Positions 11,471 to 12,562 of a stretch of 64,000 nucleotides of DNA are shown here, piece by piece. The notes under the pieces are model-generated. The model was given only the letters and a program-made list of their open reading frames with translations. It made no database searches and was not told where the DNA came from. The position numbers and the translations under genes are program-made. Numbering within the stretch: position 1 is the stretch's first letter; every line of letters begins with the position of its first letter. Origin of the DNA: Candidatus Eiseniibacteriota bacterium (GTDB taxonomy: Bacteria > Eisenbacteria > RBG-16-71-46); NCBI GenBank assembly GCA_963725865.1, contig CAVSAC010000014.1, positions 485,422-549,421 of the forward strand, read 5' to 3'.

Positions 11471-11598
11471 TCTCACTCGCGGTACAGCGTCCACGGCGTG
11501 GTCACGTCGTACACGCCAGCGACACCGCGCAGTCCCCCAACGACCGCGGGCGCGAGGCTCGCGCCCCGCGCCCGCTCCATGCCGCTCCGGCTCCGCGT

Positions 11599-11892
11599 CT
11601 AAGCGTCGCTCTTCGGCCTGAGCCCCTCCGGCACCTCGCCGACCGCGTCGGCGAGCACCGTGGCCTGGTTGTTCGAGACCTCGAAGAACCCCCCGCTCAC
11701 CTGCATCGTGAACTCGGCGCCGTCCGGCCGCCGCAGCATGAGCGCGCCCTGCGCGAGTGCCGTCACCAGCGCGGCGTGATGCGCCAGCACCCCGAGCGAG
11801 CCCTCGGTGCCCGGCACCTGCACGTACTCCACCGGGCCCTCGAACACCGAGCGCTCGGGCGTCAGGATCGACAGCTGGAAGCTCGTCCCCAT
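11599..11892 (-). CDS. atpC: ATP synthase epsilon subunit, second copy with a different C-terminus
   Basis: Near-identical to 15455-15745 except the tail (GLRPKSDA vs GLTTEPR). Confidence 0.85.
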   Translation of the reverse strand: MGTSFQLSILTPERSVFEGPVEYVQVPGTEGSLGVLAHHAALVTALAQGALMLRRPDGAEFTMQVSGGFFEVSNNQATVLADAVGEVPEGLRPKSDA

Positions 11893-11896
11893 CGGC

Positions 11897-12562
11897 TCAC
11901 GCGTGCGAGGCGAGCAGCTTCTCGCCGGCCTCGATCGCCTCCTCGATCCCGCCCTTCATGTAGAACGCCTGCTCGGGCAGTTCGTCGAGCTCACCGTTCA
12001 CGATCATCTTGAACCCCTTGATCGACTCCTCGAGCTTCACGTACCTGCCCTTGGTGCCGGTGAACGCCTCGGCGACGAAGAACGGCTGCGACAGGAACCG
12101 CTGGATCTTGCGCGCCCGCGCCACCGTGATCTTGTCGTCCTCCGACAGCTCGTCCGGGCCGAGGATCGCGATGATGTCCTGCAGGTCCCTGTAACGCTGC
12201 AGCACCTTCTGCACCGCGCGCGCGACCCCGTAGTGCTCCTCGCCGACCACCTTGGGGTCGAGGATGCGCGAGGTCGAGGCGAGCGGATCGACCGCGGGGT
12301 AGATGCCGAGCTCCGAGATCGCGCGGTCGAGCACCGTGGTCGAGTCCAGGTGCGAGAACGCGGTCGCCGGCGCGGGATCGGTCAGGTCGTCGGCCGGCAC
12401 GTAAATCGCCTGCACCGAGGTGATCGAGCCCTTCTTGGTCGAGGTGATGCGCTCCTGCAGCGCGCCCATCTCGGTACCCAGCGTGGGCTGGTAGCCCACC
12501 GCGCTCGGCATGCGCCCCAGCAGCGCCGACACCTCGGAGCCCGCCTGCGTGAAGCGGAAGAT
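11897..12562 (-). pseudogene. atpD: ATP synthase beta subunit, 3' fragment (second allele)
   Basis: Starts mid-gene at '[25 protein letters not shown]'. About 11 substitutions versus the native copy (manual count). No 5' part. Confidence 0.92.

What the first reader, a model, noticed from the sequence alone, without database searches (positions are those of the whole stretch)
11515..12562. Second, allelic copy of atpD 3' half plus atpC with a different epsilon tail
Seen: 666 bp of atpD plus a whole atpC and ~80 bp of downstream spacer duplicate 15372-16420. By manual count there are about 11 substitutions in the atpD part, mostly wobble or conservative (E/D, K/R, K/Q, S/A; one L>P). The atpC ends differ (GLRPKSDA vs GLTTEPR). 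This pattern fits a sister-strain allele better than sequencing noise. The layout full atpD-atpC, ori-like end, cargo, atpD'-atpC' is what Campbell-type integration of a circle carrying atpD'-atpC would give (inference). A second intact epsilon gene might be expressed.
Basis: partly seen in the sequence, partly recalled or inferred. Interest (0 to 1): 0.62.

Follow-up and report, generated by a model that had tools for sequence, protein, structure and literature searches.

The report
Transposon-captured copy of ATP synthase genes
The second, partial atpD plus whole atpC copy is real and is most likely DNA that a rolling-circle insertion sequence (IS91/ISCR type) dragged along from the end of the ATP synthase operon, a known mechanism seen here in an uncultured phylum with housekeeping genes as the passenger.

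Summary
Copy 1 (11514-12562) and copy 2 (15370-16416) form a 1.05-kb direct repeat on the minus strand. The core is 98.6% identical. The last ~107 nt (epsilon tail plus spacer) are only 81% identical.

Copy 1 abuts an IS91/ISCR-family transposase remnant. A matching IS ori-end remnant lies between the native atpC and the Kelch gene. Two more contigs of the same assembly carry atp fragments. One has the identical Kelch-3'/atpD' junction followed by a fuller IS91, in an unrelated 60-68% GC neighbourhood. The other begins with an IS91 ori end and carries atpC with only 65 bp of atpD. Three contigs from other Candidatus Eisenbacteria MAGs also show atpC next to this IS. A fixed ori end with variable far boundaries is the signature of one-ended rolling-circle capture.

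Campbell integration of a circle is not needed and fits less well. A sister-strain or gene-conversion origin remains possible for the tail/spacer block only. No data bear on expression of the extra epsilon. The atpD frameshift may be a consensus error. Known mechanism, new setting: moderate interest.

The parts
11514..12562 (-). Copy 1 of the repeat: atpD' 3' part, atpC' and the native-type spacer.
   Evidence: Alignment to 15370-16416.
11897..12562 (-). atpD' fragment, AtpD residues 247-468. It is in frame but lacks the N-terminal 246 residues, so it is a pseudogene. It carries L>P, K>R, D>E and A/S changes.
11599..11892 (-). atpC', an intact 97-aa epsilon (beta-sandwich only) with the ancestral-type tail GLRPKSDA.
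11548..11574 (-). GC-rich hairpin in the spacer. It is the native atp operon terminator-type hairpin, also present after atpC in IS-free relatives.
   Evidence: L013, L014, L012 and both window copies.
11472..11513 (-). A 42-nt flank shared only with L003 (38/42 identical). In L003 it leads into the IS91 5' region. In the window it ends at a deletion joint.
11290..11470 (-). IS91/ISCR-family tnpA C-terminal remnant with an internal deletion of about 190 bp.
   Evidence: DNA is 85-96% identical to 6788-6889 and 7081-7160. Protein is 93% and 76% identical in two blocks.
12563..12658 (-). Spacer between the Kelch stop codon and the atpD' breakpoint. The abrupt joint at 12562/12563 is identical in L003.
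12659..15055 (-). 798-aa Kelch beta-propeller protein with a T9SS-type/FlgD-Ig C-terminal domain. Its codon GC3 is about 0.7-0.8, against 0.96-1.0 in the atp genes.
15193..15252 (-). Solo IS91-type ori-end remnant: a hairpin followed by GTAGGCTCGC..GCGAAAGGGAGATCCCTAT. CCGT follows it.
   Evidence: (score 38 against a null maximum of 30, 0 of 200 shuffles).
15253..15369 (-). About 115 nt of unknown origin between the end of the repeat and the ori remnant.
   Evidence: No significant similarity to the other IS 3' regions.
15370..16416 (-). Copy 2 of the repeat, the native 3' end of the atp operon.
15455..15745 (-). Native atpC, 96 aa, with the derived tail GLTTEPR.
15750..17193 (-). Native full-length atpD, interrupted by a 1-nt insertion at about 16226-16231 (GATCCCGGCG).
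6531..7986 (-). Larger IS91/ISCR copy with the C-terminal half of tnpA, the 3' region and the ori terminus at 6534. It served as the reference for the two remnants.

Best explanation
Copy 1 is the decayed remnant of a composite mobile unit made by one-ended (read-through) rolling-circle transposition of an IS91/ISCR-family insertion sequence.

Proposed steps:
1. The IS sat just downstream of the atp operon's terminator hairpin, with its ter side toward atpC (inferred).
2. A transposition round that started at the ori end failed to stop at the ter end. It ran back through the spacer, atpC and the last 666 bp of atpD, and ended at an arbitrary point in atpD, AtpD codon 247 (inferred).
3. The unit [atpD'-atpC-spacer-IS] was then placed downstream of the Kelch gene (inferred).
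4. From that arrangement a second read-through picked up the last 450 bp of the Kelch gene as well and moved to another locus. This is shown by contig L003.
5. Deletions later removed most of the IS next to copy 1 and nearly all of an IS next to the native atpC, leaving only its 60-nt ori end. The remnants are shown; their order is inferred.
6. The copies have exchanged sequence since. L003 is a mosaic of copy-1-like core and copy-2-like tail, so at least one gene conversion or recombination occurred (shown). This, or a diverged donor, explains the 81%-identical tail/spacer block.

The atpD' piece is a pseudogene. The extra atpC is intact, but there is no evidence that it is used. The 1-nt frameshift in the operon's atpD is more likely a consensus error at a site where the paralogues differ than a real lesion (inferred, roughly 2:1).
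For: (1) IS identity. Pfam Y2_Tnp at E 5.5e-12. NCBIfam ISCR clade Ia transposase at E 5e-17 and IS91 family transposase at E 1.7e-12 for the window copy and for L003's ORF. The remnant next to copy 1 matches it at 93% and 76% and at 85-96% in DNA.

(2) A real element terminus. Five independent ori-side ends (window 6534 and 15194, L003 11449, L002 315, L019 1973) share ...GTAGGCTCGC..GC.CGCGAAAGGAAAT(C/T)C(C/T)TAT. All diverge completely right after it, followed by CCGT in three cases and TGAG or TGAC in two.

(3) Fixed ori end with variable far boundaries of the co-carried DNA: AtpD codon 247 (copy 1); Kelch codon 681 plus the whole copy-1 unit (L003; 0 mismatches in 450 nt of Kelch-3' plus spacer); 65 bp before the atpD stop (L002); atpC codon about 8-12 (L017, L019).

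(4) The unit occurs in an unrelated context. The left 17.8 kb of contig_77409 (Hcp, radical SAM, JAB, GH81, Big_5; 60-68% GC) has no similarity to the window.

(5) Orientation is right for capture on the ter side. In copy 1, L003, L012, L017 and L019 the order is atpC then tnpA on the same strand. L003 keeps the IS 5' region and the first ~30 tnpA codons, which it shares with full-length relatives L024 and L032.

(6) The spacer hairpin is native atp DNA, found also in IS-free relatives. The captured segment is therefore genuine operon 3' end.

(7) Polarised substitutions give the tree ((copy 1, L003), copy 2), with replacement changes on the truncated lineage.

(8) The mechanism is established for this family: termination fails in 1-14% of events and mobilises DNA next to terIS, with no target duplication and a target tetranucleotide next to oriIS (PMC13181058).

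(9) The window's contig is 1.71 Mb long and frameshifts are otherwise rare, which argues against a chimeric assembly.
Against: - No intact transposase or complete element was seen. Every copy examined has only the C-terminal half of tnpA, or that half plus ~30 N-terminal codons.
- The ter end is not defined. The 42-nt flank after copy 1 occurs only in copy 1 and L003, and the candidate CTCG plus palindrome was not confirmed in other copies.
- The ~115 nt next to the native spacer are not recognisably IS. It is therefore unproven that the native operon ever carried the IS at the point where copy 1's homology ends.
- The tetranucleotides beside the ori end (CCGT, TGAS) differ from those of characterised members (CTTG, GTTC, GTCC).
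- None of 61 related transposase loci from JGI metagenomes carries atp DNA. The association is lineage-specific, and only about 15 of those loci had 2.5 kb or more on the ter side.
- The model does not by itself explain why the unit lies only 2.8 kb from its source, or why the tail/spacer block is 19% divergent.
- No reads were available to confirm linkage of both copies on one molecule.
Confidence: 0.7

Rival explanations
1. Campbell-type integration. A circle carrying atpD'-atpC plus the Kelch gene, from a sister strain, recombined with the resident atp operon through the 1-kb homology. This produced full operon - cargo - partial copy.
For: - The A-X-A layout is what a single crossover with a circle gives.
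- The Kelch gene is compositionally foreign.
- The tail/spacer block of copy 1 is 19% divergent and of ancestral type, as if from another lineage.
- IS91-family intermediates are circles (PMC13181058), and an analogous route is proposed for ISCR1 and the duplicated 3'-CS of complex class 1 integrons (my own recollection).
- Recombination among the copies clearly occurs, since L003 is a mosaic.
Against: - The distal copy should be followed by the operon's native downstream DNA. It is followed by an IS91 remnant, and the flanks of the two copies are unrelated.
- A rolling-circle product starting at the ori end would not include the Kelch gene, which lies outside that end.
- The Kelch-3'/atpD' joint plus the IS also exists at an unrelated locus. 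Transposition explains that directly.
- The core differences are mostly derived on the pseudogene lineage.
Confidence: 0.12
2. An ordinary segmental duplication by illegitimate recombination or replication slippage, with later deletions. The IS91 copies are only neighbours that decayed in place and did not create the joint.
For: A tandem duplication of [atpD'-atpC-spacer-IS-Kelch-spacer] would create the same novel joint at 12562/12563, followed by differential deletion. The region is a patchwork with several truncated genes. No active transposase is present.
Against: It requires loss of a second Kelch copy. It does not explain L003, where the segment ends exactly at the IS ori terminus in an unrelated locus. 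It does not explain the other atpC fragments with different far boundaries attached to the same IS in L002, L017 and L019.
Confidence: 0.1
3. Assembly artefact: strain variants in the metagenome were strung together, so the two copies are not on one molecule.
For: This is a metagenome assembly. Two extra contigs with consecutive numbers carry variant copies, and one ends in 131 nt that are 100% identical to window 5638-5768. The only frameshifts in the window lie in repeated DNA. No reads could be laid on the locus.
Against: The joint at 12562/12563 connects unrelated sequences and recurs in an independent, 2-3% divergent contig. The contig is 1.71 Mb long, and 2.4 kb of unique Kelch sequence separates the copies, a span that long reads cross easily. 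Each copy has its own private variants.
Confidence: 0.05

Closest known systems
IS91 / IS1294 / IS801 one-ended transposition (HUH Y2 rolling-circle insertion sequences)
   Same: A Y2-type transposase, two different ends, a conserved ori end with a subterminal hairpin, unrelated DNA immediately beyond the terminus, and variable lengths of ter-side flanking DNA carried along (PMC13181058).
   Different: - The transposase is distant: its scores are far below NCBIfam cut-offs, and only C-terminal halves were seen.
- The tetranucleotides next to the ori end are CCGT or TGAS, not CTTG, GTTC or GTCC.
- The host is Candidatus Eisenbacteria.
- The passenger is the 3' end of a housekeeping operon.
- The ter end is undefined.
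ISCR elements and complex class 1 integrons (ISCR1 flanked by duplicated 3'-CS)
   Same: The best NCBIfam hit is the ISCR clade Ia transposase. There is serial capture of upstream DNA (atp fragment, then Kelch 3' end). The captured segment is duplicated on either side of a cargo gene. The layout resembles 3'-CS - ISCR1 - cargo - 3'-CS2 (my own recollection).
   Different: No integron and no resistance genes are involved. The cargo between the repeats lies on the ori side of one remnant and the ter side of the other. Homologous-recombination rescue is not demonstrated.
Helitron gene-fragment capture in eukaryotes
   Same: Rolling-circle HUH transposons that pick up host gene fragments when an end signal is bypassed (PMC4778049, listed; I read only the opening lines of the abstract shown there).
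   Different: A different transposase architecture (Rep/helicase), a eukaryotic host, and read-through at the 3' end rather than the ter end.

Membership tests
IS91/ISCR family insertion sequence | HUH/Y2 rolling-circle transposase | tested here: met
   Pfam Y2_Tnp at E 5.5e-12, profile positions 70-179 of 183. NCBIfam ISCR_clade_Ia at E 5e-17 and transpos_IS91 at E 1.7e-12. Only C-terminal halves are present, so scores fall below the curated full-length cut-offs.
IS91/ISCR family insertion sequence | Conserved oriIS end with subterminal palindrome, with no terminal inverted repeat matching the other end | tested here: met
   Five termini share the motif and an upstream hairpin with compensatory changes (gccCTTCggc / ggccATTCggcc). 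Similarity stops at ...CCTAT. No inverted copy of the motif was found.
IS91/ISCR family insertion sequence | Specific target tetranucleotide adjacent to oriIS and no target-site duplication | tested here: inconclusive
   CCGT in three cases and TGAG or TGAC in two next to the terminus. This suggests a preference, but the sequences differ from known members. No empty site was available to test for duplication.
IS91/ISCR family insertion sequence | terIS with palindrome and cleavage tetranucleotide | tested here: inconclusive
   A candidate CTCG lies beside a CCGCCG..CGGCGG palindrome about 130 nt after atpC in L003. It was not found in other copies.
IS91/ISCR family insertion sequence | One-ended transposition: ter-side flanking DNA of variable length moves with the element | tested here: met
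   Comparative evidence only. There are four or five different far boundaries with the same IS side, and one nested capture.
IS91/ISCR family insertion sequence | Transposition activity | not testable with these tools
   No intact tnpA was seen, and the whole genome could not be searched.
F1 ATP synthase epsilon subunit (AtpC) | N-terminal beta-sandwich domain | tested here: met
   PF02823 at E 2e-27 for both copies. TIGR01216 scores 82.5 bits against a cut-off of 67.25.
F1 ATP synthase epsilon subunit (AtpC) | Encoded in, and expressed with, an atp operon | tested here: not met
   Copy 1 follows a truncated atpD' downstream of a Kelch gene and has no atp promoter. No RNA covers it. It is a displaced copy, not an operon member.
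Campbell-type integrated circle | The distal repeat copy is followed by the target's native downstream DNA, and the two repeats are reciprocal hybrids | tested here: not met
   Copy 1 is followed by a 42-nt flank and an IS91 remnant. The flanks of the two copies are unrelated. No reciprocal hybrid pattern appears in the polarised sites.

The most novel reading that the evidence does not exclude
The captured piece of a highly conserved operon may not be inert baggage. It could give the IS and whatever it has picked up (here a secreted Kelch/T9SS protein gene) a ready-made homology arm. Together with a preference for the atp terminator region, this would let the composite return to, or enter, the atp locus of related genomes. 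That would explain why the unit lies 2.8 kb from the native operon and why atpC-IS junctions recur in two Eisenbacteria lineages. A weaker variant is that the intact orphan epsilon copies are expressed and titrate or modulate F1.
Probability: 0.1. Interest if true: 0.6.

Novelty: new member of a known kind. Interest (0 to 1): 0.4.

Why it matters
IS91/ISCR capture is known almost entirely from resistance and virulence genes in Proteobacteria. This locus shows the same process in an uncultured FCB-group phylum, with a core bioenergetic operon as the source. It preserves a nested series of captures: first the atp fragment, then the 3' end of a neighbouring gene.

There is also a practical warning. 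The extra atpD'/atpC copies can mislead marker-gene copy counts, binning and consensus polishing. The only frameshift in the atp operon falls exactly where the paralogues differ. If that frameshift were real, the organism's only visible beta subunit gene would be broken, and that would be worth knowing.

Tried and rejected
- **Whole-genome tools.** I could not count atp fragments, IS copies or a second atp operon in the 1.7-Mb contig.
- **Read phasing.** No public run holds the locus. The best runs contain only trace perfect pieces of the Kelch gene, or other organisms' atpD.
- **Transcription of copy 1.** Two metatranscriptomes gave perfect pieces only on the Kelch gene, one ending 59 nt short of the atpD' joint. 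This is uninformative.
- **Simple insertion in L003.** I tested whether the unit interrupts a gene that resumes after the ori end. It does not. The left flank is an esterase-like N-terminus and the right flank is the C-terminal T9SS-type domain of another gene.
- **Spacer hairpin as terIS.** Rejected. IS-free relatives have the same hairpin after atpC.
- **The 42-nt flank as the IS ter end.** Not supported. It is absent from all other IS copies, and conserved IS 5' sequence starts about 50 nt further on.
- **A family-wide atp association.** Rejected. None of 61 metagenome loci carries atp DNA.
- **Small ORFs around 11.1-11.6 kb and 15.1-15.4 kb.** No Pfam hits.
- **Promoter and terminator scan and folding of the Kelch-atpD' spacer.** Nothing found.
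- **One script timed out** and was replaced by a BLAST search.

Full report
**Observation**

The repeat finder and a local alignment show one long direct repeat, 11514-12562 against 15370-16416. It has 1052 columns, 26 mismatches and 8 gap positions. Both copies read on the minus strand. Copy 2 is the 3' end of an otherwise normal atp operon, with atpG at 17221-18078 and atpA at 18089-19597.

Copy 1 holds three things:
- AtpD residues 247-468
- a complete 97-aa epsilon
- 85 nt of spacer

There are 11 substitutions in the atpD part, six synonymous and five replacements, and the epsilon ends differ: GLRPKSDA against GLTTEPR.

Two things were missed.
- A 1-nt insertion at about 16226-16231 frameshifts the full-length atpD, while the truncated copy is in frame. 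A GC3 frame plot shows the frame switch at about 16200 and none in copy 1.
- Divergence is bimodal. The core is 98.6% identical. The last seven epsilon codons plus spacer are 80.7% identical.

**Local anatomy, read 5'->3' on the minus strand**

1. atpD (frameshifted), then atpC.
2. An 85-nt spacer containing a GC-rich hairpin.
3. About 115 nt of unknown origin.
4. A 60-nt IS91-type ori-end remnant ending ...GAAAGGGAGATCCCTAT at 15194, followed by CCGT.
5. The Kelch/T9SS gene (15055->12659). Its GC3 is about 0.75, against about 0.97 in the atp genes.
6. A 96-nt spacer, then an abrupt joint.
7. atpD', atpC' and the spacer with the same hairpin.
8. A 42-nt flank.
9. An IS91 tnpA C-terminal remnant (11470->11290) with an internal deletion.
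10. A patchwork of truncated genes and a kinase gene, then a larger IS91 copy at 7986->6531.

This rests. The transposase pieces hit Pfam Y2_Tnp and the NCBIfam ISCR clade Ia and IS91 models. The hits are below the full-length cut-offs because only the C-terminal half is present.

**Other copies in the same assembly**

The exact-sequence look-up shows the window's contig is 1.71 Mb long. Two other contigs of the same ENA assembly encode near-identical epsilons.

*contig_77409 (L003/L021).* It has, in order:
- the last 450 nt of the Kelch gene plus spacer, with 0 mismatches to the window
- the identical atpD' joint
- atpD' (211-aa ORF) and atpC (identical in protein to copy 2)
- the spacer and the same 42-nt flank
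- the IS 5' region with the first ~30 tnpA codons, an internal deletion, then the tnpA C-terminal half
- the ori terminus

The 17.8 kb to its left (Hcp, radical SAM, JAB, GH81, Big_5; 60-68% GC) has no similarity to the window. The unit cuts an esterase-like ORF on the left. On the right it abuts the C-terminal T9SS-type domain of another gene.

*contig_77410 (L002).* It begins with an IS ori end and later carries atpC (tail GLRAKSDA). Only 65 bp of atpD precede that atpC.

**The same pairing in other genomes**

The nearest reference genomes are Candidatus Eisenbacteria MAGs, with epsilon at most 75-79% identical. Three contigs show atpC beside this IS:
- In L012, atpC and its hairpin are followed about 150 nt later, on the same strand, by the last 58 residues of this transposase.
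- In L019, from a MAG whose full atpD-atpC is on another contig, atpC residues 12-64 are fused to the transposase C-terminal part (...GETQRW|GVRYYGAY...). An ori terminus lies 0.5 kb on, and the locus sits beside a TPR-CHAT gene.
- In L017, atpC residues about 8-58 sit 35 nt from the conserved IS 5' region.

By contrast, none of 61 loci with related transposases from JGI metagenomes carries atp DNA. The pairing is therefore lineage-specific and not a property of the whole IS family.

**Why one-ended capture is the best reading**

All five ori-side ends stop at the same motif, and the DNA beyond them is unrelated. The boundaries on the other side all differ: AtpD codon 247, Kelch codon 681, 65 bp before the atpD stop, and atpC codon about 8-12.

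In every case the order is atp fragment then tnpA on one strand, so the atp DNA lies on the ter side. Characterised IS91-family elements mobilise the flank on the ter side when termination fails, in 1-14% of events. They make no target duplication and have a target tetranucleotide next to oriIS (PMC13181058).

L003 is a nested case. Its far boundary lies beyond copy 1's joint, so it was copied from a copy-1-type locus that then had working IS ends. The spacer hairpin also occurs after atpC in IS-free relatives (L013, L014). It is therefore the operon's own terminator-type hairpin, and the captured DNA is genuine operon 3' end.

**History of the sequence differences**

I used two outgroups, L020 (96% in protein) and L001. 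The polarised changes are as follows:

| Lineage | Derived changes |
|---|---|
| Copy 1 + L003 (shared) | 12476, 12156 (L>P in the conserved ILG-DEL motif), 12045 (K>R), 11779 |
| Copy 1 only | 12404, 12194, 12026 (D>E) |
| Copy 2 only | 12485, 12052 (K>Q), and the extra base |

The tree is ((copy 1, L003), copy 2), with replacements accumulating on the truncated lineage. No foreign allele is needed for the core.

The tail/spacer block is different.
- Copy 1's tail (RPKSDA) is the type seen in relatives (VAQAEA, TPKVEA, VPKTDA) and in L002 (RAKSDA). Copy 2 and L003 share the derived TTEPR.
- L003 is copy-1-like in its core and flanks but copy-2-like in the tail, so it is a mosaic. At least one conversion or recombination among copies has occurred.
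- A pseudogene cannot be 1% diverged in 942 nt and 19% diverged in the next 107 nt by simple decay. One block must have a separate origin. That origin is either conversion from another copy or a diverged donor. I cannot tell which.

**The frameshift**

Copy 2 reads GAT CCC G GCG. Copy 1 and L003 read GAT CCC GCG. Both outgroups read GAC CCG GCG.

The extra base is a one-step run-length change at a position where the paralogues differ. Elsewhere in the 64 kb, only the repeat-containing M48/TerB gene at 3.9-6.4 kb shows frame switches. I judge a consensus error caused by cross-mapping of paralogous reads about twice as likely as a real lesion. This is an inference, because no reads were available.

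**How copy 1 came to lie 2.8 kb from its source**

This is not settled.
- The simplest scenario is local. An IS sat after the native terminator with its ori end next to the Kelch gene. A read-through copy landed just beyond Kelch, and both IS copies later suffered deletions. In that case the end of the repeat at 15370 would be a deletion breakpoint.
- Recombination between a unit elsewhere and the operon could give the same product.
- Re-insertion guided by a preference for the atp terminator region could also give it.
- The ~115 nt beside the native spacer are not recognisably IS. The local scenario is therefore unproven.

**Expression**

No promoter-like or terminator-like pattern and no significant structure lies between the Kelch stop and atpD'/atpC'. 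Perfect metatranscriptome pieces cover parts of the Kelch gene and 38 nt past its stop, but none reaches copy 1. Whether the extra epsilon is made is unknown.

**Comparison and verdict**

This behaves like IS91/IS1294 one-ended transposition and like ISCR serial capture. I file it as a distant member of that family on three grounds: the transposase, the ori end, and the variable ter-side passengers. The ter end, the target rule and activity are untested.

It is a new setting for a known mechanism: Eisenbacteria, a housekeeping operon as donor, and a preserved nested capture. It is not a new kind of system.

**Limits**
- No run holds the locus.
- Only one assembly shows both copies on one molecule.

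Noticed in passing
window 16224-16232: A one-base run-length insertion frameshifts the only full-length atpD seen. It falls exactly where the paralogous copies differ (CCCGCG, CCGGCG, CCCGGCG). It could be a polishing error or a real broken beta subunit gene.
   Followed up: partly
window 3855-6401: The M48 peptidase/TerB-repeat gene is split over four reading frames, with switches near 4360, 4750-5150 and 5780. The end of contig_77409 is 100% identical to 5638-5768 and 86% identical to the second TerB unit (6234-6378). 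This looks like a repeat-associated assembly-graph junction.
   Followed up: partly
window 12585-12625 (minus strand): The spacer between the Kelch stop and the atpD' joint contains GTTCTACATCCCG and GTTCTCTATCCCGT. The second resembles the IS ori terminus plus its CCGT flank (TCCCTAT|CCGT). It is too short to call.
   Followed up: no
L003 11490-11705; window 12659-12900: The DNA just beyond L003's ori terminus encodes only the C-terminal FlgD-Ig/T9SS-type sorting domain of some gene. The captured Kelch piece is also just that domain. Fragments of secreted-protein genes seem to collect around these IS copies.
   Followed up: no
L034 4774-4793 and 5105-5124: The metagenome locus with the closest transposase (89%) has two copies of the 20-nt ori core 331 bp apart. 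This may be a tandem or nested ori end.
   Followed up: no
L017 1560-1645: After about 30 codons of the IS91 tnpA start, the frame continues as an IS5/IS4-like DDE transposase segment (...RGSKHHLLTDAQGLPLVFSLTAANRHDV). So one IS is inserted into another next to the atpC fragment.
   Followed up: no
window 15404-15431 and 11548-11574; L012, L013, L014 after atpC: A conserved GC-rich hairpin (GACGGGCGCGG...CCGCGCCCGTC) follows atpC in several Eisenbacteria lineages. It has no T-tract and is probably the atp operon terminator in these high-GC genomes.
   Followed up: partly
window 12621-12836 and 14695-14969: Two public metatranscriptomes (X25, X26) contain perfect pieces of the Kelch/T9SS gene. 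The organism, or this gene, is therefore present and probably transcribed in another sampled environment.
   Followed up: partly
window 15455-15745 and relatives P0002-P0006: Epsilon is only 96-97 aa (beta-sandwich, no C-terminal helices) in this genome and in all close relatives examined. This is a lineage feature and not a result of the duplication.
   Followed up: partly
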